A stretch of DNA of 12,439 nucleotides from Promethearchaeota archaeon. Lineage in GTDB: Archaea; Asgardarchaeota; Lokiarchaeia; Sigyniarchaeales; SOKP01. The translations under genes and the position numbers were made by a program. Location of the stretch: the NCBI GenBank assembly GCA_048939015.1, contig JBHLPW010000089.1:1-12439 (forward strand). The letters are read 5' to 3'. The notes under the pieces are model-generated. The model saw only the letters and a program-made list of their open reading frames with translations, was not told the DNA's origin and ran no database searches. Shown piece after piece: positions 1 to 12,439 of this stretch (the stretch's first letter is position 1; the number at the start of each line of letters is the position of its first letter).

Positions 1-2405
1 AAATTGTATTTATTAATTTTAATTAGTCGATCTGTACTAGTTTTATACACCTCAAAGGCTTTATCGTATTCATGATTTCTCAAGTGATTTAGACCATCTC
101 TAAAATAACCCCTTCTGTGTACTTTTCTCTCTTTTAACTCCTTTTCTCTGTCAAGTAATGCTTCTCTTGCCTTATTTTCGATTATTGAACGCCTTTCTTT
201 TATTTCCTCTCCCTCACGAGTTTCCTTAGCTTTCTTTGTTCGAATTTTACTTTTTTCATCTTCAAGTTCTGCTATTTTTTTATGAATTTCAGTTTTATAA
301 GCTTTATTTTCAATTTTATCATTATAAACTTGCGCTAAATGCAATTCATCAAATTTGATGTAAATTTCGGCAATCTTCTTATAGATTTTATTAAAAGTAA
401 TATTAATATTCTCTTCTTTATCTAAATAAGCCATTATTAATGTTTCAACCTTTTTAACCAAAGCTTCCGCTTGAGTAATAGCAGATAAATTTTCTTCAGT
501 TTCTAATATTTTTAAAGCTTCTTTTTTAATTACTTTAATATAACTAAGAGTTATTTCTTTTGATTGTTCATAAAGCATTTGATCTCGGTATATCTTGATT
601 GAGTTCTCAAAAATTTTTGATTTTTTTTGGTATTCTTCTGTTTTTTTAAGTTCTTCTAATTGTTGTAAGTATTTCGGAAAAATTCTGACTAAATATCTGG
701 TTTTTATTTCTCCTGAAAGTTCATTAAAAAGTTTAAAAAATTCTTGAAAAATTAAACCGTCTAAAAGTATATCCAAAGATTTTGTAAGAATCTGGTCTCT
801 GATTTCTTCTTTTCCAATTTTTTTAAGATATTCTGCCTGCTTTATTAAGATATTTGCTGCCTTTAAATGATTTTTATCATCTACAAATTCATTTGCTTTT
901 AATATTTTTTTATTGTTTATCTCTGCTATGATATCAATCTCAGCCTCAGAAAAATCTCTTATTACATCTACTCCCCTATTAATATAATCTTCTACTTCTT
1001 TCTTTTTTAATGCTTCATATTTATCTTCAAATTCATCTCTATTTTTTGCTAATTGTTGTTTTAATTTTCTGGAGTTTAATTTGTCAATTAGAATTGTTGC
1101 CATTCCAAAATTGTTTACCTTAAAAAATTGATTAATTAGTTTTTCTAAAGTTGAATCTAGGTTCATCTTTTTCACTTTATAAGATTCCCACATATTTTCA
1201 AGCTCATCATAGGTATTTTTTGCAGCATGGTTTTTTTCCTCACTTATTTGTTGAGTAAAAAGCGTGATTAAGACATCAGTTAATTTTTTTGTTAGAGTTT
1301 TTAATTCTTCAGAAAGTGCTTCACGTTGGTATTTATTGATAGCTAGGTATAACTGTTCTCTAGCTGATTCAATATTGTTGATACTTACTAAATAATCTGC
1401 TGCTGAACAAATCTTGTTTGATATCTCTGTTAATATAGTAATTACTCCCTGATGAGGTAAACTATCCAAAATTCTCAATGCGTTATCAACCTTACAAGCT
1501 GAAATCCAGGAATTTATAGACAATTTAAACGCCTCATCAATAAAAGTCTTGTCTAGTGATTCTATACTAGACCATTGAGCTGCTCTTTCATAATTTTTAG
1601 CAGCTCGTTCATATTCATTTCTATTGAAAGCAAGATTTCCTTCTCTTATCATGGCATCTGCATAGAGCTTTTTAAAATTTGAAGATTTTCTTGCGTCTAC
1701 TTTTTCTAAAATCTTGCTAGCTTCTAAATAAAGATTGATTTTTGAATAAAGATACGCCGCTTGCTCACATATTATAAAATATTCTTCTTTATTATAAATG
1801 TCGGCTATTAACGCTGCCTTTCTGATAGCCTGAGCAGCATAATAATAATTTTGGTTATTAAAATAGATATTGGCCATACTAATGAAGATTGGGAACCTCA
1901 TCCAGGCATTTTCAATATTTAATGGAGTATCTCCATTAATCATTGCTAAACATAAGGATTGGAGTGCTTGATGAAAATTTTGAGGTGGTAAATTTGCAAA
2001 TGCTTCTAAACTTGGAAAATTAACCCATATATGTTGTAATAAATCATTGACGGGAATAGGGAGGATTCCATTCTGATCATGAAACATTACAATTGTAGGA
2101 ATATCATGTTTTACTGAAAAAATATCTGGGAGTATCATCTCAAATAACTCTGATTCCTCTTCATTTACAGGATTCAAAAAATATATGATTCCATCAACCA
2201 TAGGAATTATTTCATCTAAATCCGCAGAAATACTTGTAATAGCGTCAATTTCTAAATCGCAAACATCATCGAATACTTTAATTTCTTTATACCATTTGAA
2301 ATGCGTTTCTTGATCTTCCCCTGGCTCACCAAAAGCTTGGGAAACATAAAAATGGGTTGTGTCAACATCATCCCCCAAGATCAATACCGAAAAGTAATAC
2401 TTCAT
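1..2405 (-). CDS. Large protein (>801 aa, C-terminus beyond the window edge): degenerate small-GTPase-like N-terminal domain plus TPR/SNAP-like alpha-helical solenoid
   Basis: Not in the ORF track. Hand translation from ATG at 2405 gives MKYYFSVLILGDDVDTTHFYVSQAFGEPG... and stays open to position 1. The first ~165 aa have Ras-like strand motifs (FSVLILGD, DLEIDAI, VDGIIYFLNP, DIPTIVMF). The rest is helical with TPR-like segments (YYYAAQAIRKAA, GNLAFNRNEYERAAKNYERAA, GLNHLRNHEYDKAFEVY). The ORF is certain; the domain calls are by eye. Confidence 0.85.
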   Translation of the reverse strand, partial: MKYYFSVLILGDDVDTTHFYVSQAFGEPGEDQETHFKWYKEIKVFDDVCDLEIDAITSISADLDEIIPMVDGIIYFLNPVNEEESELFEMILPDIFSVKHDIPTIVMFHDQNGILPIPVNDLLQHIWVNFPSLEAFANLPPQNFHQALQSLCLAMINGDTPLNIENAWMRFPIFISMANIYFNNQNYYYAAQAIRKAALIADIYNKEEYFIICEQAAYLYSKINLYLEASKILEKVDARKSSNFKKLYADAMIREGNLAFNRNEYERAAKNYERAAQWSSIESLDKTFIDEAFKLSINSWISACKVDNALRILDSLPHQGVITILTEISNKICSAADYLVSINNIESAREQLYLAINKYQREALSEELKTLTKKLTDVLITLFTQQISEEKNHAAKNTYDELENMWESYKVKKMNLDSTLEKLINQFFKVNNFGMATILIDKLNSRKLKQQLAKNRDEFEDKYEALKKKEVEDYINRGVDVIRDFSEAEIDIIAEINNKKILKANEFVDDKNHLKAANILIKQAEYLKKIGKEEIRDQILTKSLDILLDGLIFQEFFKLFNELSGEIKTRYLVRIFPKYLQQLEELKKTEEYQKKSKIFENSIKIYRDQMLYEQSKEITLSYIKVIKKEALKILETEENLSAITQAEALVKKVETLIMAYLDKEENINITFNKIYKKIAEIYIKFDELHLAQVYNDKIENKAYKTEIHKKIAELEDEKSKIRTKKAKETREGEEIKERRSIIENKAREALLDREKELKERKVHRRGYFRDGLNHLRNHEYDKAFEVYKTSTDRLIKINKYN

Positions 2406-2432
2406 TTCTAAATCTCATCGAAAATTTTTTAC

Positions 2433-2460
2433 ATAGATATATTATCTAAGATAAATCTAT
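2433..2460. promoter_or_regulatory. Imperfect palindrome in a divergent intergenic region, possible operator
   Basis: ATAGAT-ata-TTATCT-a-AGATAA-ATCTAT: nested inverted arms 27 nt upstream of the minus-strand ATG at 2405. The AT-rich context lowers its significance. Confidence 0.25.
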
Positions 2461-2580
2461 TCTAAACACATAAAATTATGAAACTTATGAAATTCTTTTA
2501 AAAGAAAAAAAATCTTTTAATAATAATTAATTGAGTTTGCTAATTTAAATTTTTTTTTAGACCTAAAAGGAGAATAAACA

Positions 2581-3243
2581 TTGGAATACATTGAAAGGAA
2601 TTATCAGCTTATAAAACAACGAATGATTGAGCAAATGGAAAATAGTATAAAATTAGGCCGAAAATTAATTGATACTGAATTAGACACAGGTTTGCTAAAT
2701 TTTATTATAAAACCGATTGTAAAAACATTCTACGATTATTGGTCTCAAAATGATGCCCGAGAGGGTACTCTTAAACAAATCAAAATTACTTTAGAAGCAG
2801 GAAAAAAATTATTGTTTAATGGAGGTTCTGATGAAATATTCAATGAAATACTTGATGATTCTTTTCCAAAATATCTTGAAGCAGATCAAACAACACGTCA
2901 ATGCTCGCGACATCATAAAAATTATGAAAAATTAATAAATGTTACCAAGGAGACTTTTATAAATTATTTAAAGGAAGTAATAAAACTTTTAGACATTAAA
3001 GCTGAAGCAGATAATTATGGAGACTTATGTCGTGAGGCATTTCCTTCTAAGGAGGTAGCAAAACAAAATTTGATGAAACAATTAGATTTTACAGATCGAG
3101 GTATTAAAATAGTTGAGGAAGATCCAAGCATCCTTAAAGTCCCCGTTGGAAAAAAGATAATTTTAAAGGCATTAAGAAGGGGTTTCGAACAAACTAAGGA
3201 AGAGTTTACTAAAGCTCTCAATGATACTTATAACAATAAATAA
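2581..3243 (+). CDS. Hypothetical alpha-helical protein, paralog A of a tandem pair
   Basis: 220 aa ORF with a TTG start and AGGAG at 2568-2572. It aligns end to end with 3332..3991 (about 111 of 219 residues identical by hand count), which supports both the coding call and the start. Confidence 0.9.
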   Translation: MEYIERNYQLIKQRMIEQMENSIKLGRKLIDTELDTGLLNFIIKPIVKTFYDYWSQNDAREGTLKQIKITLEAGKKLLFNGGSDEIFNEILDDSFPKYLEADQTTRQCSRHHKNYEKLINVTKETFINYLKEVIKLLDIKAEADNYGDLCREAFPSKEVAKQNLMKQLDFTDRGIKIVEEDPSILKVPVGKKIILKALRRGFEQTKEEFTKALNDTYNNK

Positions 3244-3331
3244 TTAAAATATTAATTTAATAAAGAATTTTATCTAGAAAGTGTGTAAAATTTTAATTCA
3301 AATATAATTTAAATGAGATTTTTGCATAATA

Positions 3332-3991
3332 ATGGATTACGTAGATAGGAACTATAGAATCTTAGAGAAGAGGATGGTGGAGCAAATGGAAACCTCACTT
3401 TCCTACGGGAGGGATTTATTAGATTCTGAGGTTGAAGCTGGGGCACTAAATTTCGTTGTAAAGCCGATCGTCAAATCATTTTATAAATATTGGAGCGATA
3501 ACGAGGCTAAAGTAGGTACTAAAGAACAGATTCGCGTTACGCTTGATTCCGCTAGAGAGTTGGTCCGAAATGGAGATATATCAAAAGAAAAGTTTGATAG
3601 GGTTGTCAATAAGAATTTTCCTGTTTATTTAGAGAATGATCAAACAGACCGTCAGTGTAAAAAAACACACCAAAATTATCAAAAGTTGAAGGACGTAACT
3701 AAAAAATGTTTTATAACTCAAATTGAAGAAAGTATTCTGTTTCTAGATGTAAAGGATGATGTAGAAGGATATAATGCATTATCTAGAGCAGCTTTTAAAA
3801 CAAAAGAAAGAGCTTATCAAGCTTTGATACGCCAACTTGACTATAATGAGGAAGGAATTTCTGTTGTTGAAAAAGATGATACTATTCTTAAAGTTCCTGT
3901 TGGAAAGAATATTATTTTAAAAGTGCTACGATTAGGTTTTGAAAAGACTAAGGAGAAATTAATTGAAGAACTTGACGAGATATTTAATTAA
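3332..3991 (+). CDS. Hypothetical alpha-helical protein, paralog B of a tandem pair
   Basis: 219 aa ORF sharing KPIVKxFYxYWS, YLExDQTxRQCxxxHxNYxKL and ILKVPVGKxIILKxLRxGFE with the upstream gene. Confidence 0.9.
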   Translation: MDYVDRNYRILEKRMVEQMETSLSYGRDLLDSEVEAGALNFVVKPIVKSFYKYWSDNEAKVGTKEQIRVTLDSARELVRNGDISKEKFDRVVNKNFPVYLENDQTDRQCKKTHQNYQKLKDVTKKCFITQIEESILFLDVKDDVEGYNALSRAAFKTKERAYQALIRQLDYNEEGISVVEKDDTILKVPVGKNIILKVLRLGFEKTKEKLIEELDEIFN

Positions 3992-7933: not shown

Positions 7934-8818
7934 ATGTCACTTGAAAAAAGAAGAGAACCTAAAAGAAGCAAAGAAAAAGAAGTTCTACAGGATAGTTCAT
8001 TTAGGCGTACTGATTTTAGACCACTTCAAGTAGAAGAGAAAGAAGAGGAGCCACCAGAAGTAATTGTTGATGAATTAAATGAAATTGAAAAAGATGTATT
8101 AGAAATCGCAAGTGATATATTAAAATTAAAACGATATGAAACAGAATTTGAAATTGAATCAGAAAGCCAAATTCAGAAGTATCCAATTATCGAAAAATTA
8201 TATGCTAAATGCATTGCAAAACTCTCCTATAGAAAAGGATATAGTAAGGAAGAAATTTTCTTAGCAATTCGGAGTTTAGAAGAAAAATCATATATTGTCA
8301 CGAATGAGAGAAGAACTAAATTGGAAATACTTACAAACGAAAAATTAGTAAGTATACTTAATTTCATAAAAGAAAATCCTGGAATTCATGCCAGAGATGA
8401 AAAAATCGAAAGTGAACTAGAGATTACAAGAACTCCATTTTTGAAACATGTGATGACTCTTGAAAGATTTAAACTTGTTCGCTCAAAAAGAATAGGGAAG
8501 TCGTTGCATTATTTTCTGAGTGATTTAGCAGAAGATTATGATAAATATAAGGTTATCTTTTTAAATCCTCTGATTCCTCAAATCTTAGAAGAACTCTTTA
8601 GAGATGAAGCAATATCAATTTCAGAAATCGGAAATACTCTTGATATGTATTCTGGGACAATATTATATCATGTTAAGAAGTTAAAAGAATTAGATATAAT
8701 CAAATCCGCCAAAAATCAATCGAATAAGAAAATTCATCTTGTAAATGTTGAGCTATTAAAGAAATATAATGATTTTTTTAAAGAACCAGATTTTGGCAAA
8801 TTGCTTAAAGGTCTATAA
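7934..8818 (+). CDS. Multi-winged-helix transcriptional regulator (ArsR-like tandem wHTH, COG3398-like, with an extra N-terminal wHTH-like domain)
   Basis: ILNFIKENPGIH...LKHVMTLERFKLVRSKRIGKSLHYF and ILEELFRDEAISISEIGNTLDMYSGTILYHVKKLKELDII are typical tandem archaeal wHTH domains. YSKEEIFLAIRSLEEKSYIV suggests a third. It starts 2 nt after the upstream stop. Confidence 0.85.
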   Translation: MSLEKRREPKRSKEKEVLQDSSFRRTDFRPLQVEEKEEEPPEVIVDELNEIEKDVLEIASDILKLKRYETEFEIESESQIQKYPIIEKLYAKCIAKLSYRKGYSKEEIFLAIRSLEEKSYIVTNERRTKLEILTNEKLVSILNFIKENPGIHARDEKIESELEITRTPFLKHVMTLERFKLVRSKRIGKSLHYFLSDLAEDYDKYKVIFLNPLIPQILEELFRDEAISISEIGNTLDMYSGTILYHVKKLKELDIIKSAKNQSNKKIHLVNVELLKKYNDFFKEPDFGKLLKGL

Positions 8819-9396
8819 TTTAATGAAAATACTTTAAGGTTTAATGGCGGATTTAAGTAAAATTTCTTATATATTAATTATTTTCCCAATTTCTATATAG
8901 TCATGCTAGAAGTCTATTCTATTACAAATTTTTTATACTAATTAATTTTAGATTACTATTTGAAAATTTATCCAATAATCTGTGGTTAAAATTAAACACA
9001 ATTTTTTAAGGAAAGGACGTGTATTTTCATCAATTAAGAAAGTCTCAATTTTTACCAGTAAATCGTCTTGGAGCTACATTTTTTGAAAATGTATTAATAA
9101 AATCTAATTAAGAATAATAGTCTCAAATTTGGAAAAAATATGATTATTCGATTGTAAGATAATTCATTACTTTATACAAGTATAAACAAAAGAAGAAAAA
9201 GAATTGCTAATGAAATGTATTTAAGAACTATTTATCATTATAAAAGAAAAAATCTGAAAAAAAATCCTACTTCTTTTTATACATAACATAAAATTTTTAT
9301 TTATTTTTTTTTATTAGTAATACAAAATCTTTCAATGTAGTAATTCTATGTTTTTAAATTATTACCTTACTATAAACTATTAATAATAATATGAAT

Positions 9397-9410
9397 GTAA
9401 AATTTAAATA
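9397..9410 (+). promoter_or_regulatory. Putative BRE/TATA promoter of the 9437-11669 cassette
   Basis: GTAAAA-TTTAAATA, with the TATA-like box at 9403-9410 ending 26 nt before the ATG at 9437. This spacing is usual for leaderless or short-leader archaeal transcripts, but the background is very AT-rich. Confidence 0.35.
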
Positions 9411-9436
9411 AAATTATAGATAGAGATAAGAGAAAA

Positions 9437-10747
9437 ATGAAAAGCATTAAAGATTTATTACCTGATAAAAAAATACCGGATTTAATCCATATTTGTAAAA
9501 ATCTCGGTCTAAGAGGGTATACAAATCTTAGGAAAGAAGGGATTATTAACTTAATTAATGAGAATGTGAGAAACCCGCAAGTTCAAGAAACTATAAAATT
9601 TTCGATACCCGACAATGGAACTGTTGCCTTAATTCTGAAAAGTCTCATAGAGAATAAAAATGAAGTAAAATATAGGGATCTAAGGAATGAAGTATTAGAA
9701 AATCGATCGGGTTCAACTTTTAGAGACAATTATCGAACACTGTTAGCACAATCTTTTATTTTTGAGGACGAGAAGTCTGAGGAAGATATCCTTTATTTAC
9801 CTAAGGAATTTTCCAATATTGCCAAAGAAATAATCGAAAAAAGAATTCAAGAAGAAGAACCCGAACTTGAAATTGAGATCGCAAATGAGGAGGAAGAAAA
9901 AGAAGAAAAAATACTTACCTCAATTGACCAATTATTATATTCAAAAAAATATACGAGTGTAAGTGGGATTCAAAAGGAATTGATGGAAAGGAATTTAAAG
10001 ATATCTGGAACCAAGGATCAATTGATTGACAGATTGTTATATGAATCAAATGAGCCTATTCAAAACATTTTAGGTCTCTTATTTGGAAAGATTGAATTAA
10101 AAGAAATTTGTAGGGAATTTGATCTACTTGTATCTGGAACTAAAGAAACTTTAATTGATAGAATTTTGGAAAAATTACCTCCCGCTCATCCAGATAAAGT
10201 TAAATCACCAGTTCAAGAAATTGAGTCTGAAGAAAAGATTATGATTAAAGAAGTCACAGGTGTTGCTTCTGGGTTAGCAGAAGAAAAAATATCTGAAATT
10301 CAACCTGTCAAACCAATCCAAGAGGTAGAACCACAAATAAGGATTGTTGAAACCATATTTAATGATCTCAATAATGCATGGATTGATTATAAATCAATTA
10401 CAGATAATAAAAGTCTAGCAGGAATGATTAATACAAGACTTCGAAATCTACCAAGCTTAAGAGAGGCGGAGATTCATAGGATTGATAAAGCCCGTGAAGA
10501 ACCTCTCATTACTATAGAAAAAGAAGGTGAAGTTGTAGTTGTCTTTGTCTGGTATTTCGATAAGAGTAAGGGGTATAAAACACAAATGCAAAAGATCACA
10601 TTTGGAATTATGACATATAGTGCTCAGATTAGTAAAGATGTAATTTGTTATATTTATGACCCAGAACCAAAGCTTTCAGAGGAAGATATAGGAACATTTA
10701 GCTCTCTCTCACTTGTTATTCGTAAAACTGAAAGAGAATTTAAATGA
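9437..10747 (+). CDS. Multidomain nucleic-acid-binding protein: Rho-N/HEH-like, wHTH-like, two SAP domains and a C-terminal inactive PD-(D/E)XK-like domain
   Basis: KKIPDLIHICKNLGLRGYTNLRKEGIINLI is HEH/Rho-N-like. SVSGIQKELMERNLKISGTKDQLIDRL and GKIELKEICREFDLLVSGTKETLIDRI match the SAP consensus (LxxxLxxxxLxxSGxKxxLIxRL). The last ~134 aa align with the downstream nuclease but lack its catalytic residues. Confidence 0.8.
   Translation: MKSIKDLLPDKKIPDLIHICKNLGLRGYTNLRKEGIINLINENVRNPQVQETIKFSIPDNGTVALILKSLIENKNEVKYRDLRNEVLENRSGSTFRDNYRTLLAQSFIFEDEKSEEDILYLPKEFSNIAKEIIEKRIQEEEPELEIEIANEEEEKEEKILTSIDQLLYSKKYTSVSGIQKELMERNLKISGTKDQLIDRLLYESNEPIQNILGLLFGKIELKEICREFDLLVSGTKETLIDRILEKLPPAHPDKVKSPVQEIESEEKIMIKEVTGVASGLAEEKISEIQPVKPIQEVEPQIRIVETIFNDLNNAWIDYKSITDNKSLAGMINTRLRNLPSLREAEIHRIDKAREEPLITIEKEGEVVVVFVWYFDKSKGYKTQMQKITFGIMTYSAQISKDVICYIYDPEPKLSEEDIGTFSSLSLVIRKTEREFK
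10003..10162 (+). repeat. Intragenic tandem SAP-domain duplication, 129-nt (43 aa) period
   Basis: ATCTGGAACCAAGGATCAATTGATTGACAGA (10003-10033) versus ATCTGGAACTAAAGAAACTTTAATTGATAGA (10132-10162), encoding SGTKDQLIDR and SGTKETLIDR. Confidence 0.75.
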
Positions 10748-10757
10748 GTAGAAAAGA

Positions 10758-11165
10758 TTGATGAAACAACTTCTATTAGATGTTATTGAAAATTTAAATG
10801 ATATCGATATTTATAAAATAACTCACATCGAAAATGAAACAGAATTTGAAAAATTTATTTATAATCGGTTAGATAAAATCCTCGATAAAAAAATCAATTT
10901 AATGACACAATCCAGATCATACAAAGAGGGTCGTGAAGTAAGACCAGATATAGTTATCGGAAAAGATGACATCTTAATAGAGTTAAAATATGATTTAAAG
11001 GGTGTTAATGATATTTATCGGCTCTACTATCAAGCAGTTAAATATTCCAAAAGAGCTAATTATGCTTTAATTCTATGTGTCCATGATCCTGCTAAATTGT
11101 TATTAAGAAGTGATATTAATGATTTAGAGAGCGTAGAAAAAGTCAAAGTGATACAAATTTATTGA
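10758..11165 (+). CDS. Stand-alone PD-(D/E)XK nuclease (restriction-endonuclease fold, resembling the REase_DpnII-MboI-like group)
   Basis: Helix Glu in NETEFE, RPDIVI (PD), ILIELK (ExK), QAVKYS (QxxxY) and the C-terminal strand LILCVHDP. The start is TTG at 10758 or ATG at 10761. Confidence 0.85.
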   Translation: MMKQLLLDVIENLNDIDIYKITHIENETEFEKFIYNRLDKILDKKINLMTQSRSYKEGREVRPDIVIGKDDILIELKYDLKGVNDIYRLYYQAVKYSKRANYALILCVHDPAKLLLRSDINDLESVEKVKVIQIY

Positions 11166-11174
11166 GGATTTACA

Positions 11175-11669
11175 TTGCCTATAAAAAAATATATCTCAAG
11201 ACCAATATTTTCTTTTATTTTAAGCGAGAAATTGGAATTGAAATTGAAAGAATATATTAATTCAAAAAATCAGCAAGAAATAGCAGGCGGATTAATCGGA
11301 GACATTAAAGGTGGAGAAAAAAATAATATTATATTTGATATAAAGAAGTTTTTACCTTTTCCTAATTTGTCTCAAGATCCTAAAAATTTTGCGATTCCTC
11401 CTCAATCATGGTTCGAGATACTTGATGATTGGCGATTTTTTTATCATAATGAGTATAAATTCTTAGGTTTTTTACATACGCATCCAGAGAGTTCCTCTAA
11501 ATTAAGCAAACAAGATGAACAATTTGGTATTCTTTTAAAAAAAAAATACGGTTCAATTGTATTTATTATCATTGGAAAAAATAAATATCTTAGATGTTAT
11601 TGTTTTAATGATTATTCGATAGAACTAATAGAGGGTAGTTTAAAATATTACCGACTCATCCAGAAATGA
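11175..11669 (+). CDS. JAB/MPN+ (JAMM) metalloprotease
   Basis: Catalytic Glu in QEIAGGLIG and a complete HxH-x7-S-x2-D motif in LHTHPESSSKLSKQD. TTG start with GAGGA (11164-11168) overlapping the upstream stop. Confidence 0.9.
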   Translation: MPIKKYISRPIFSFILSEKLELKLKEYINSKNQQEIAGGLIGDIKGGEKNNIIFDIKKFLPFPNLSQDPKNFAIPPQSWFEILDDWRFFYHNEYKFLGFLHTHPESSSKLSKQDEQFGILLKKKYGSIVFIIIGKNKYLRCYCFNDYSIELIEGSLKYYRLIQK

Positions 11670-12173
11670 TATGATTTGTTATTATAAAATGTGATAAATT
11701 TTAAAAAACCAATTACTATTTCACTTAGGACAATTTCTAACACATTATATTTTGGATCTTACATTTTGGAAATATAAATTATTTTTGCTTATATCATGAT
11801 ATTTCTATAAAAATATTTTTATGTATTGATAATATAATTTTTAAATAACTTTAAATACACTGTCTTTTATACATCTCTTTTAAGTATTTTCTAGTTTTTT
11901 TTTCAGAAATAGAAATTAGAATATTTCAGAATAAGATTTTTAGGAAAATAAATTAGTGGGAAAAAAAAATCTTTTTAATTGGACAAAAAATTTTTTATCG
12001 AGATTTTATTTAATTGATTCTGTAAGATATTATTTTTAAAAGACCTTATTTGAAACGGTTATTCAAAACATATCAAATATATAGGTTCTTTGATTTTATT
12101 ATTATTAGGCATTTAATCATAAGACAAATGAAAAGAATATATATTTGTGTTTATAAATTCTTGGTTTATTAAT

Positions 12174-12439
12174 ATGAGTGATTACAATTTTATTGAAGAT
12201 TTTTCTTTGTGGGACCATCAAAAAGATGCATTAAGAAAAATTGTAGATTATATTGACTATTGTCAAAAAAATAATGATTTTTCGAAATCTGCTTTAGTTC
12301 ATATGCCAACAGGTAGTGGTAAATCTGGAGTTATTGCAACTCTATCTCGATTCTATTCTAAAGTTAATCATGTTTTAATATTAACTCCTAAGATCGCTCT
12401 TAGAGATCAGCTCTACAATGATATTAATGAGCGTTTTTT
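12174..12439 (+). CDS. Superfamily 2 helicase/ATPase (ResIII / DEAD-DEAH-like), N-terminal fragment cut by the window edge
   Basis: Not in the ORF track. Hand translation gives MSDYNFIEDFSLWDHQKDAL...SALVHMPTGSGKSGVI...VLILTPKIALRDQLYNDINERF, with a Q motif (LWDHQ), Walker A (MPTGSGKS) and motif Ia (LTPKIALRDQ). Open to the end of the window. Confidence 0.9.
   Translation, partial: MSDYNFIEDFSLWDHQKDALRKIVDYIDYCQKNNDFSKSALVHMPTGSGKSGVIATLSRFYSKVNHVLILTPKIALRDQLYNDINERF

What the first reader, a model, noticed from the sequence alone, without database searches (positions are those of the whole stretch)
9437..11669. Candidate undescribed three-gene system: SAP/HEH DNA-binding pseudo-nuclease, paralogous active PD-(D/E)XK nuclease and JAMM protease
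Seen: three co-oriented genes with 10- and 9-nt gaps, the third gene's RBS overlapping the second gene's stop, a TATA-like box in front, and 618- and 504-nt AT-rich spacers on either side. Known: PD-(D/E)XK nucleases are common defence effectors, SAP/HEH domains bind DNA without strict sequence specificity, and JAB proteases regulate CBASS (Cap3) and Bil-type systems or remove SAMP/ubiquitin. This cassette has no methyltransferase, CD-NTase, E1/E2 or Ubl gene, and I know of no described system with this composition. Inferred: gene 1 senses or tethers DNA and holds the nuclease through its dead paralogous domain. The JAMM enzyme would switch the complex by removing a host ubiquitin-like modifier or by cleaving gene 1's linker. 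An anti-virus/plasmid or DNA-damage role is plausible.
Basis: partly seen in the sequence, partly recalled or inferred. Interest (0 to 1): 0.8.

Follow-up and report, generated by a model that had tools for sequence, protein, structure and literature searches.

The report
Asgard SAP-nuclease plus JAMM protease module
A rare, horizontally moving gene trio of Asgard archaea pairs a DNA-binding protein carrying a dead nuclease domain with a live copy of that nuclease and a JAMM-type protease; it matches no described system and is most likely a new, still untested genome-conflict (defence) module.

Summary

**The three genes**
- Gene 1 (436 aa) has a HeH, a winged helix, two SAP domains, a disordered linker and a C-terminal PD-(D/E)XK-like domain. 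That domain is homologous to gene 2 (hhalign E 1e-5) but lacks D, E and K.
- Gene 2 (134 aa) keeps an invariant PD..ExK motif.
- Gene 3 keeps the full JAMM motif.

**Linkage and distribution**
- The trio recurs in about 10 Asgard metagenome loci with unrelated flanks.
- The association survives gene-order changes: JAB-first, a divergent JAB, and two-gene forms where the SAP protein carries an active nuclease domain.
- It is rare. Gene 2 matched 3 of 400 Asgard genomes and none of the other 53 genomes of the genus. No homologue was found in viral contigs.
- In this genome it lies in an island inserted into a core gene.
- Several loci sit beside pAgo, HEPN, Mrr, RAMP or AAA_15 genes.
- No methyltransferase, CD-NTase, E1/E2 or Ubl gene accompanies it. 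PADLOC recognises only the JAB domain.

**Verdict**
This is a real, apparently undescribed module. A conflict or defence role is likely but unproven, and the JAMM substrate is unknown. An earlier scan report on another genome reached the same view.

The parts
9437..10747 (+). Gene 1, 436 aa: multi-domain DNA-binding protein with a C-terminal pseudo-nuclease
   Evidence: ORF. About 20 full-length homologues at 36-82% identity. AF2 model with mean pLDDT 79.6 shows three folded blocks and two disordered linkers.
9464..9562 (+). N-terminal HeH (Rho_N-like) motif, residues ~10-42
   Evidence: Pfam Rho_N E 5.6e-5, just under its cut-off. Helices 13-22 and 33-43 in the model.
9609..9847 (+). Winged-helix-like domain, residues ~58-137
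   Evidence: Foldseek matches to the winged-helix proteins SSV1/STIV F93 and pNOB8 AspA: probability 1.0, TM by target 0.63-0.69.
9923..10174 (+). Two tandem SAP domains, residues ~163-246
   Evidence: Pfam SAP 61.6 bits (cut-off 23.9), two stretches. The internal DNA repeat 10002-10038 / 10131-10167 reflects the duplication.
10208..10339 (+). Disordered linker, residues 258-301, holding the only semi-conserved motif (A277-S-G279, nt 10265-10273)
   Evidence: pLDDT 25-31. A hydrophobic-A-S-G consensus sits within otherwise variable columns. Its role as a cleavage or docking site is inference only.
10340..10744 (+). Degenerate PD-(D/E)XK domain, residues 302-436, paralogous to gene 2
   Evidence: hhalign A4 against A2: probability 82.5%, E 9.8e-6, 117 columns, with L357/F370/W372 in place of D/E/K. 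Same order of secondary-structure elements as gene 2. Foldseek hits to EcoT38I, EndoMS and BamHI. The dead copies form one clade.
10761..11165 (+). Gene 2, 134 aa from the ATG (the TTG at 10758 is possible): minimal active-looking PD-(D/E)XK nuclease
   Evidence: R58, P62, D63, E74, K76 and Q91 are invariant in 16 sequences. AF2 pLDDT 90.4. Best structural matches are restriction-endonuclease-fold proteins: R.BspD6I small subunit Z 8.5, Card1/Can2 nuclease domains Z 7.8-8.2, Hjc and XPF.
11175..11669 (+). Gene 3, 164 aa: stand-alone JAMM/MPN+ metalloprotease
   Evidence: E35, H101-x-H103, S111 and D114 are invariant. PADLOC JAB model E 3.9e-11. Pfam JAB and Prok-JAB score just under their cut-offs. 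Weak NCBIfam desampylase and Cap3 matches. The Atlas's nearest clusters are all Prok-JAB.
8819..9436 (.). 618-nt AT-rich upstream spacer with a TATA-like TTTAAATA at 9403-9410
   Evidence: No Rfam family or tRNA. The motif is not above chance.
8294..8836 (+). Left end of the inserted island: the element-borne 3' part of the core wHTH gene, a duplicate of G000:C67:3387-3929
   Evidence: blastn 75.5% over 543 nt. The C-part of the window copy is 80.8% identical to the G020 orthologue, against 95.7% for its N-part. The displaced remnant on C67 is 96.0% identical.

Best explanation
The three genes form one functional module, so far found only in Asgard archaea, carried as cargo of variable genomic islands.

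**Shown**
- The module is a conserved, accessory and horizontally moving unit.
- Its minimal form is a HeH-wH-SAP DNA-binding protein ending in a PD-(D/E)XK nuclease domain, plus a JAMM metalloprotease.
- In the window's form the nuclease domain has been duplicated. The free copy (gene 2) keeps the catalytic D..ExK. The copy fused to the DNA binder (gene 1) has lost it but stays under selection.

**Inferred**
- Gene 1 binds DNA through its HeH, wH and SAP modules. It recruits gene 2 through nuclease-domain dimerisation, as in active/inactive pairs such as XPF-ERCC1 or large/small-subunit restriction enzymes. This would give a DNA-tethered enzyme with one active site.
- The JAMM enzyme controls this nuclease post-translationally. 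It most likely acts by proteolysis of the SAP protein or nuclease, possibly in the disordered linker. Less likely, it removes a host ubiquitin-like modifier.
- The biological role is most likely genome conflict, meaning defence against viruses or plasmids, or addiction of the island that carries it.
For: **The genes behave as a unit**
- The g1-g2-g3 order recurs with unrelated flanks in L008, L013/14, L016, L018/19 and L056.
- The association survives rearrangement. L077 has the order JAB-g1-g2. In L055 the JAB is divergently transcribed from a fused SAP-nuclease gene.
- Two-gene fused forms occur in L022, in L028 (cut by the contig end) and in the P0060 locus.
- The three families are of similar, small size: 13, 20 and 21 clusters.
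- The JAB subfamily has only 47 hits at E<=1e-3 among 1.84 billion representatives. In five of the six hits beyond the first-found set whose contigs I inspected, a SAP protein is the adjacent gene.

**Catalytic status**.

**Fold**.

**Evolutionary series**
- Fused active domain, then active fused domain plus an active free copy (L077), then dead fused domain plus an active free copy.
- The dead copies form one clade.

**Accessory status**
- The gene 2 profile matched 3 of 400 genomes of the phylum and none of the other 53 genomes of the genus.
- Only 2 further species matched in the scan of 185,579 species genomes.

**Island**
- The flanking wHTH gene is core (54/54). Its native 3' part is displaced to another contig.
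- A congener carries an integrase-like gene at the same site.

**Conflict-type neighbours**
- PDC-S71-like helicase and a Cas4-like protein in this island.
- pAgo (L017), Mrr_cat/DUF4238/ApeA-HEPN (L018), HEPN (L022), a HerA-like ATPase (L016), RAMPs (P0060 locus), and AAA_15 (L077, L010).
- Decayed copies exist (L010-12, L024), as expected of dispensable cargo.
Against: - No experiment and no expression data bear on the module.
- The neighbourhood argument is qualitative. Two loci (L008, L056) show no recognisable defence neighbours, and Asgard genomes are rich in such genes anyway.
- The JAMM substrate is unknown. Neither gene 1 nor gene 2 ends in a Gly-Gly-like tail.
- The ASG linker motif is absent from the fused forms (L022, L028, L055). 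A common cleavage site in the linker is therefore not supported across the family.
- A dead domain could serve another role than heterodimerisation.
- One locus (L017) keeps g1-g2 without the JAB, so the protease is not strictly required for retention.
Confidence: 0.5

Rival explanations
1. A methyltransferase-less (Type IV-like or Type IIS-like) restriction endonuclease. The HeH/wH/SAP part recognises foreign or modified DNA and the nuclease domains cut it, as in large/small-subunit enzymes. The JAB is only an accessory or maturation factor.
For: - The best structural match of gene 2 is the small catalytic subunit of the heterodimeric R.BspD6I (Z 8.5), followed by many restriction enzymes.
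- The architecture, a DNA-binding region followed by a non-specific PD-(D/E)XK domain, resembles FokI and Mrr layouts.
- No methyltransferase was seen in any locus.
- L077 has two active domains, as in two-subunit enzymes.
Against: - Z 8.5 is tied with unrelated nuclease domains and lies in the range common for chance fold matches (note).
- SAP and HeH modules bind DNA with little sequence specificity (general knowledge).
- Losing one active site in most members would leave a nickase, a poor restriction enzyme.
- This reading does not explain why the JAB is kept so tightly through rearrangements.
Confidence: 0.2
2. A toxin-antitoxin-like addiction module of the island. Gene 2, or the fused nuclease, is the toxin. 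The pseudo-nuclease protein and/or the JAB neutralise it. The module stabilises the mobile island and does not defend the host.
For: - The module lies inside an inserted island at a recurrent integration site.
- It is compact, with tight gene spacing and patchy distribution.
- Decayed copies exist.
- A weak Pfam hit of the L055 fused protein to Tox-REase-7 (E 0.0098, under its cut-off).
Against: - Fused forms have no separate pseudo-nuclease that could act as antitoxin.
- A 436-aa multi-domain DNA binder is unlike usual antitoxins.
- No homologue was found in viral contigs.
- No integrase or replication gene travels with the module in the loci seen.
Confidence: 0.15
3. An accessory DNA-repair or chromatin-processing factor. 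An example would be a structure-specific nickase tethered to DNA, whose turnover is set by the host ubiquitin-like system through the JAMM deconjugase.
For: - Structural similarity of gene 2 to Hjc and XPF/Hef nuclease domains.
- The active/dead pairing recalls XPF-ERCC1 and Mus81-Eme1 (general knowledge).
- The host genome encodes ubiquitin-like proteins, five E1-like enzymes and at least nine other JAB proteins.
- The JAB's best curated match is a desampylase.
Against: - The module is extremely rare and strain-specific.
- It lies in inserted islands beside conflict genes.
- The desampylase score is 28.9 against a cut-off of 130.
- No Ubl, E1 or E2 gene is linked in any locus.
Confidence: 0.1

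Closest known systems
CBASS Cap3 / Bil-system JAB / archaeal desampylase (stand-alone JAMM isopeptidases of prokaryotic Ubl-type systems)
   Same: Small single-domain MPN+ enzyme with the complete E..HxHx7Sx2D motif. PADLOC Cap3-type JAB models give the best family hits (E 3.9e-11). It is encoded in a mobile, patchily distributed operon.
   Different: No CD-NTase, Cap2 (E1/E2), Ubl or SAMP gene is linked in any locus. Scores are far below the curated Cap3 and desampylase cut-offs. The partners here are a SAP protein and a PD-(D/E)XK nuclease. The subfamily is tiny and confined to Asgard-type contigs.
Heterodimeric restriction endonuclease R.BspD6I (large DNA-recognising subunit with a nuclease domain plus a small catalytic subunit), and FokI-type layouts
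   Same: A large DNA-binding protein ending in a PD-(D/E)XK domain, plus a small protein that is only a PD-(D/E)XK domain. The top structural match of gene 2 is the R.BspD6I small subunit (Z 8.5, rmsd 3.2 over 111 residues).
   Different: There is no methyltransferase. The large subunit's nuclease domain is catalytically dead in most members. The DNA-binding modules are HeH/wH/SAP, not a sequence-reading recognition domain. A JAMM protease is an obligatory partner. The structural score is not distinctive.
XPF-ERCC1 and Mus81-Eme1 (active/inactive paralogous nuclease heterodimers with helix-hairpin-helix DNA-binding modules)
   Same: An active nuclease domain is paired in the genome with a degenerate paralogue attached to non-specific DNA-binding helical modules. 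Foldseek lists archaeal XPF/Hef and ERCC1 among matches to gene 2.
   Different: No sequence-level relation was found. The module is accessory and mobile, not a core repair factor. A physical heterodimer is not shown here. A protease partner is present.
Metallopeptidase plus DNA-binding-protein switches (ImmA-ImmR, IrrE-DdrO, CapP-CapH)
   Same: A metalloprotease gene is tightly linked to a gene for a DNA-binding protein within mobile or immune loci. In those systems the protease cleaves the DNA binder on a DNA-damage or ssDNA signal (CapP-CapH: bioRxiv 10.1101/2022.04.27.489752 and PMC13228613, abstracts listed).
   Different: Those peptidases have a zincin fold, not JAMM. Their targets are small HTH repressors that control transcription, not a nuclease-bearing protein. 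Cleavage is untested here.

Membership tests
PD-(D/E)XK nuclease superfamily (gene 2) | Catalytic D ... (D/E)xK motif on the core beta strands | tested here: met
   P62-D63 and E74-L-K76 are invariant in 16 homologues.
PD-(D/E)XK nuclease superfamily (gene 2) | Restriction-endonuclease-like alpha-beta-beta-beta-alpha-beta fold | tested here: met
   AF2 pLDDT 90.4 with that order of elements. The matches are almost all PD-(D/E)XK enzymes: Foldseek probability up to 0.99 and VIA Z up to 8.5.
PD-(D/E)XK nuclease superfamily (gene 1 C-terminal domain) | Catalytic D ... (D/E)xK motif | tested here: not met
   L357, F370 and W372 align to D63, E74 and K76. No member of the 18-sequence alignment keeps ExK. 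Homology and fold are kept, so it is a pseudo-nuclease.
JAMM/MPN+ metalloprotease (gene 3) | E ... HxHx7Sx2D zinc-binding and catalytic motif | tested here: met
   E35, H101, H103, S111 and D114 are invariant in 19 homologues.
JAMM/MPN+ metalloprotease (gene 3) | Score above the curated Pfam thresholds (JAB, Prok-JAB) | tested here: not met
   20.8 bits against 22.5, and 17.7 against 25. PADLOC JAB E 3.9e-11 and the Atlas neighbours still place it in the fold. It is a divergent subfamily.
SAP domain (gene 1) | Pfam SAP above the gathering score | tested here: met
   61.6 bits against 23.9, two stretches.
CBASS type II | CD-NTase, a Cap2 (E1/E2) gene and an effector next to the Cap3 JAB | tested here: not met
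   No such Pfam or PADLOC hits in the window or in any related locus. NCBIfam Cap3 scores 20 bits against a cut-off of 200.
Bil / prokaryotic ubiquitin-like conjugation operons | Ubl, E1 and E2 genes in the same operon as the JAB | tested here: not met
   None in the cassette or its flanks. Ubl and E1 genes exist elsewhere in the genome, on other contigs.
Archaeal desampylase (NF041370) | Equivalog score at or above 130 bits | tested here: not met
   28.9 bits.
Type II/IIS restriction-modification system | Cognate DNA methyltransferase gene adjacent | tested here: not met
   No methyltransferase family among the called neighbours of any locus inspected.
Heterodimeric restriction enzyme of the R.BspD6I kind | Physical complex of the large subunit with the small catalytic subunit | tested here: inconclusive
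   Only structural similarity of gene 2 to the small subunit is available (Z 8.5, tied with other families). Binding is not established.
Hachiman (HamA nuclease + HamB helicase) | DUF1837-type HamA next to a HamB helicase, the two conserved as a pair | tested here: not met
   The downstream helicase matches HamB models only at its first ~100 residues (E 6e-8). It matches PDC-S71 far better (3e-48). It lies 504 nt away, is split, and is absent from all other loci of the module.

The most novel reading that the evidence does not exclude
A new class of protease-gated immune nuclease that needs no ubiquitin-like partner. A JAMM enzyme directly processes a DNA-tethered nuclease/pseudo-nuclease complex to switch DNA cutting on or off. 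It arose in Asgard archaea from building blocks later prominent in eukaryotic DNA-damage and chromatin biology: SAP, MPN+ and asymmetric nuclease pairs.
Probability: 0.2. Interest if true: 0.8.

Novelty: new variant of a known kind. Interest (0 to 1): 0.55.

Why it matters
- JAMM proteases in prokaryotic immunity are known only as parts of ubiquitin-like conjugation machinery (CBASS Cap3, Bil). A JAMM enzyme tied instead to a DNA-bound nuclease would be a different regulatory logic.
- The module shows a full evolutionary series from a fused active nuclease to an active/dead pair. This makes it a compact model of how asymmetric nuclease complexes such as XPF-ERCC1 can arise.
- It adds a candidate to the poorly charted defence repertoire of Asgard archaea.
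- It marks a recurrent integration site in a core gene of this genus.
- All three proteins are small enough for direct biochemical tests.

Tried and rejected
- **Complex prediction.** Gene 1 C-terminal domain with gene 2 scored 0.02 against a mark of 0.32. This is no verdict and counts neither for nor against binding.
- **Direct BLASTP of gene 1 against gene 2** found nothing. Only the profile comparison showed the relation.
- **PDB sequence searches** with the gene 2 and JAB profiles gave nothing useful: a dynein light chain at E 0.12, and one uncharacterised JAB protein, 2kks, at E 0.027.
- **PHROGs and NCBIfam** gave no hit for genes 1 and 2.
- **Viral contigs (IMG/VR)** held no JAB homologue.
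- **Rfam, tRNA, terminator and sigma-70 scans** of the spacers found nothing above chance.
- **Repeats flanking the cassette** are only low-complexity AT-rich matches.
- **Sequencing runs:** no RNA holder is listed, so expression could not be examined.
- **Integrase in G000:** a search with the integrase-like gene found at the same site in G017 gave no hit. The island is split over two contigs, so this does not show absence.
- **Literature:** full-text searches for JAB + SAP + nuclease in Asgard or defence contexts found no description of this architecture. The library lacks most subscription journals.
- **Argonaute link rejected:** I considered that the module is one system with Argonaute (L017). 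That adjacency occurs in one lineage only.
Full report
**1. What is in the sequence**

The window is the first 12.4 kb of a 15.6-kb contig, G000:C110. The assembly is 4.86 Mb at about 28% GC, and its relatives are labelled Promethearchaeota / Lokiarchaeia / Thorarchaeota.

- Three co-oriented ORFs lie at 9437-10747, 10758-11165 and 11175-11669. The gaps are 10 and 9 nt.
- All homologues of gene 2 start one codon later, at the ATG 10761, so the first gap is probably 13 nt.
- GAGG overlaps the gene 2 stop, just before the gene 3 TTG start.
- AT-rich spacers of 618 and 504 nt flank the block.
- TTTAAATA lies 27-34 nt before the gene 1 ATG. Such octamers are no more frequent than chance in this window.
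- No RNA family, tRNA or terminator-like site was found in the spacers.

**2. The three proteins**

*Gene 1.*
- Pfam finds two SAP domains (61.6 bits) and a Rho_N-like HeH at the N-terminus.
- An AlphaFold2 model built on 18 homologues has mean pLDDT 79.6. It shows a HeH plus winged-helix block (1-137), an acidic disordered stretch (140-157) and two SAP units (160-250). A 44-residue disordered linker (258-301) and a folded C-terminal domain (302-436) follow.
- Foldseek matches the winged helix to SSV1/STIV F93 and pNOB8 AspA. It matches the C-terminal domain to restriction-fold enzymes: EcoT38I, EndoMS and BamHI.

*Gene 2.*
- It models with pLDDT 90.4 as a minimal alpha-beta-beta-beta-alpha-beta nuclease fold.
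- Its structural neighbours are almost all PD-(D/E)XK proteins. They include the R.BspD6I small subunit (Z 8.5), the Card1, Can2 and VC1899 nuclease domains, BamHI, BglII, Hjc and XPF. None stands out from the rest.
- P62-D63 and E74-x-K76 are invariant in 16 sequences.

*Gene 3.*
- It keeps E35, H101-x-H103, S111 and D114 in all 19 sequences.
- It scores just under the Pfam JAB cut-offs. It matches PADLOC Cap3-type JAB models at E 3.9e-11, and a desampylase model only weakly.

**3. The dead paralogue**

- BLASTP sees no similarity between genes 1 and 2.
- A profile-profile comparison of the gene 1 C-terminal domain (A4) with gene 2 (A2) gives 82.5% probability and E 9.8e-6 over 117 columns.
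- The alignment puts L357, F370 and W372 where gene 2 has D63, E74 and K76. No gene 1 homologue keeps ExK.
- Both domains share a conserved strand ending in D-P (YIYDP in gene 1, CVHDP in gene 2).

**4. Relatives and the shape of the family**

- Each protein has a small family: 13, 20 and 21 clusters at 90% identity. All come from metagenomes or Asgard MAGs.
- The g1-g2-g3 order recurs with unrelated flanks in L008/L009, L013-15, L016, L018/19 and the divergent L056. In L056 gene 1 has 585 aa and extra SAP units.
- A profile of the JAB found only 47 proteins at E<=1e-3 among 1.84 billion representatives.
- I inspected the contigs of six hits beyond the first-found set. Five have a SAP protein as the adjacent gene:
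  - L055 (Heimdallarchaeota) has a 419-aa SAP protein with an active-looking nuclease domain. It is transcribed divergently from the JAB.
  - L056 has the three-gene form.
  - The P0060 locus has a 407-aa SAP protein followed by the JAB, beside a RAMP gene.
  - L077 has the order JAB, SAP protein, small nuclease. Both nuclease domains keep D..ExK.
  - One locus had an unannotated 226-aa neighbour and no DNA. A more distant JAB has another context.
- Genome searches added two further fused forms. G307 (L022) has a 424-aa SAP protein with VPD..ELK followed by a JAB. G066 (L028) is cut by the contig end.
- The minimal unit is therefore a SAP-nuclease protein plus a JAB. Linkage that survives changes of order and orientation argues for joint function.
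- A tree of the nuclease domains puts the dead copies in one clade on a long stem. The free copies, the fused active domains and the L077 domains are unresolved at the base. This fits one duplication followed by decay of the fused copy. The tree is unrooted and built from short sequences.

**5. Distribution and context**

*Rarity.*
- The gene 2 profile matched 3 of 400 genomes of the phylum and none of the other 53 genomes of the genus.
- The scan of one genome for each of 185,579 species added only two Promethearchaeota contigs. One of them is a JAB remnant.
- No homologue was found in IMG/VR.
- Decayed copies occur: L010-12 (gene 1 lost, gene 2 truncated, JAB frameshifted) and L024.

*The island in this genome.*
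- The upstream wHTH gene (7934-8818) is present in all 54 genomes of the genus.
- In four of five relatives inspected, a conserved convergent gene block follows it directly.
- In G000 that block lies on contig C67. There it is preceded by a remnant of the wHTH gene, residues 118-294.
- The N-part of the window copy is 95.7% identical to the closest orthologue. Its C-part is only 80.8% identical, while the C67 remnant is 96.0% identical.
- An element therefore inserted at codon ~118 and brought its own 3' gene end.
- The island holds the cassette and a split helicase matching the candidate defence family PDC-S71 (E 3e-48; 0 of 53 congeners). It also holds a 937-aa protein with a Cas4-like domain.
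- A congener (G017) has an integrase-like gene at the same site plus the same kind of remnant. No such integrase was found in G000.

*Neighbours elsewhere.* They include pAgo (L017), Mrr_cat, DUF4238 and ApeA-HEPN (L018), a HEPN protein (L022) and a HerA-like ATPase (L016). RAMPs (P0060 locus) and AAA_15-type ATPases (L010, L077) also occur.

**6. What it most likely does**

*Shown:* a conserved, accessory, island-borne module whose parts are predicted to bind DNA, cut DNA and cleave peptide or isopeptide bonds.

*Inferred:*
- The SAP protein tethers the nuclease activity to DNA.
- In the three-gene form, the dead domain pairs with the free nuclease, as in other active/inactive or two-subunit nucleases.
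- The JAMM enzyme controls the complex.

*The JAMM substrate is open.*
- Neither partner ends in a Gly-Gly-like tail.
- The only semi-conserved motif of the disordered linker (ASG, residues 277-279) is missing from the fused forms.
- The host has ubiquitin-like proteins, E1-like enzymes and other JABs, but on other contigs.

I rate a conflict role (defence or island addiction) with protease control of a DNA-tethered nuclease at about 0.5. The rivals are a methyltransferase-less restriction enzyme, a toxin-antitoxin-like addiction module and an accessory repair factor.

**7. Comparison with known systems and novelty**

- No CD-NTase, Cap2, Ubl, E1/E2 or methyltransferase gene is linked. The module is therefore not CBASS, Bil or a classical R-M system.
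- The neighbouring helicase is not a conserved partner, so the module is not Hachiman.
- PADLOC models recognise only the JAB domain and, weakly, a nuclease domain.
- Full-text searches found no description of this architecture.
- An earlier follow-up in this scan, on another genome, independently called the g1-g2 pair an undescribed Asgard nuclease module that elsewhere travels with a JAB. My data agree.
- The parts are familiar domains and the general logic, a nuclease effector with a protease partner, is known. I therefore class it as a new variant of a known kind. Its function is untested.

Noticed in passing
window 7934-8836 and G000:C67:3378-3929 (L076): A core wHTH gene serves as a recurrent integration site. 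The window copy is chimeric: native 5' part, element-borne 3' part from about nt 8294. The native 3' part (residues 118-294) survives as a remnant on contig C67, next to the conserved downstream genes. G017 shows the same full copy plus remnant, with an integrase-like gene at the junction.
   Followed up: partly
window 12147-12439, continuing to G000:C110:15223 (L005 3148-6227): The SF2 helicase downstream of the cassette is split into a 113-aa ORF (Walker A part) and an 887-aa ORF in another frame. The large part matches the PADLOC candidate family PDC-S71 (E 3e-48). It has no homologue in the other 53 genomes of the genus. The split may be a frameshifted pseudogene or an assembly error.
   Followed up: partly
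L076 (G000:C67) 556-3369: A 937-aa protein at the other end of the same island ends in a Cas4-like PD-(D/E)XK domain (PADLOC Cas4 E 6.7e-5). The rest of the protein has no family match.
   Followed up: no
L017 9807-12113 (same place as G241:C60): In one lineage the SAP protein and the small nuclease are followed by a 768-aa prokaryotic Argonaute (PADLOC pAgo E 5e-44) where the JAB gene normally sits. This is the only locus with genes 1 and 2 intact and no JAB.
   Followed up: partly
L010 7953-8763 (also L011, L012): A decayed copy of the module: gene 1 gone, gene 2 lacking its first 31 codons, the JAB frameshifted near residue 120. It sits among AAA_15/AAA_21 ATPase and PIN_4 genes.
   Followed up: partly
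window 2581-3243 and 3332-3991: Two adjacent, clearly similar ~220-aa proteins (a tandem duplication) with no Pfam family above threshold.
   Followed up: no
many genomes of the family (e.g. L032-L054); second hit in G000:C64:28387-28530: The first ~50 residues of gene 1 (the HeH motif) also match the N-terminus of a ~317-aa protein present in most genomes of the family (84 of 134 at E<=1e-6). This HeH module is therefore common in these archaea outside the cassette.
   Followed up: no
window 9275-9312 and 11865-11902: An imperfect 38-nt direct repeat (74% identity) lies in the two AT-rich spacers flanking the cassette. It is low-complexity and probably chance.
   Followed up: no
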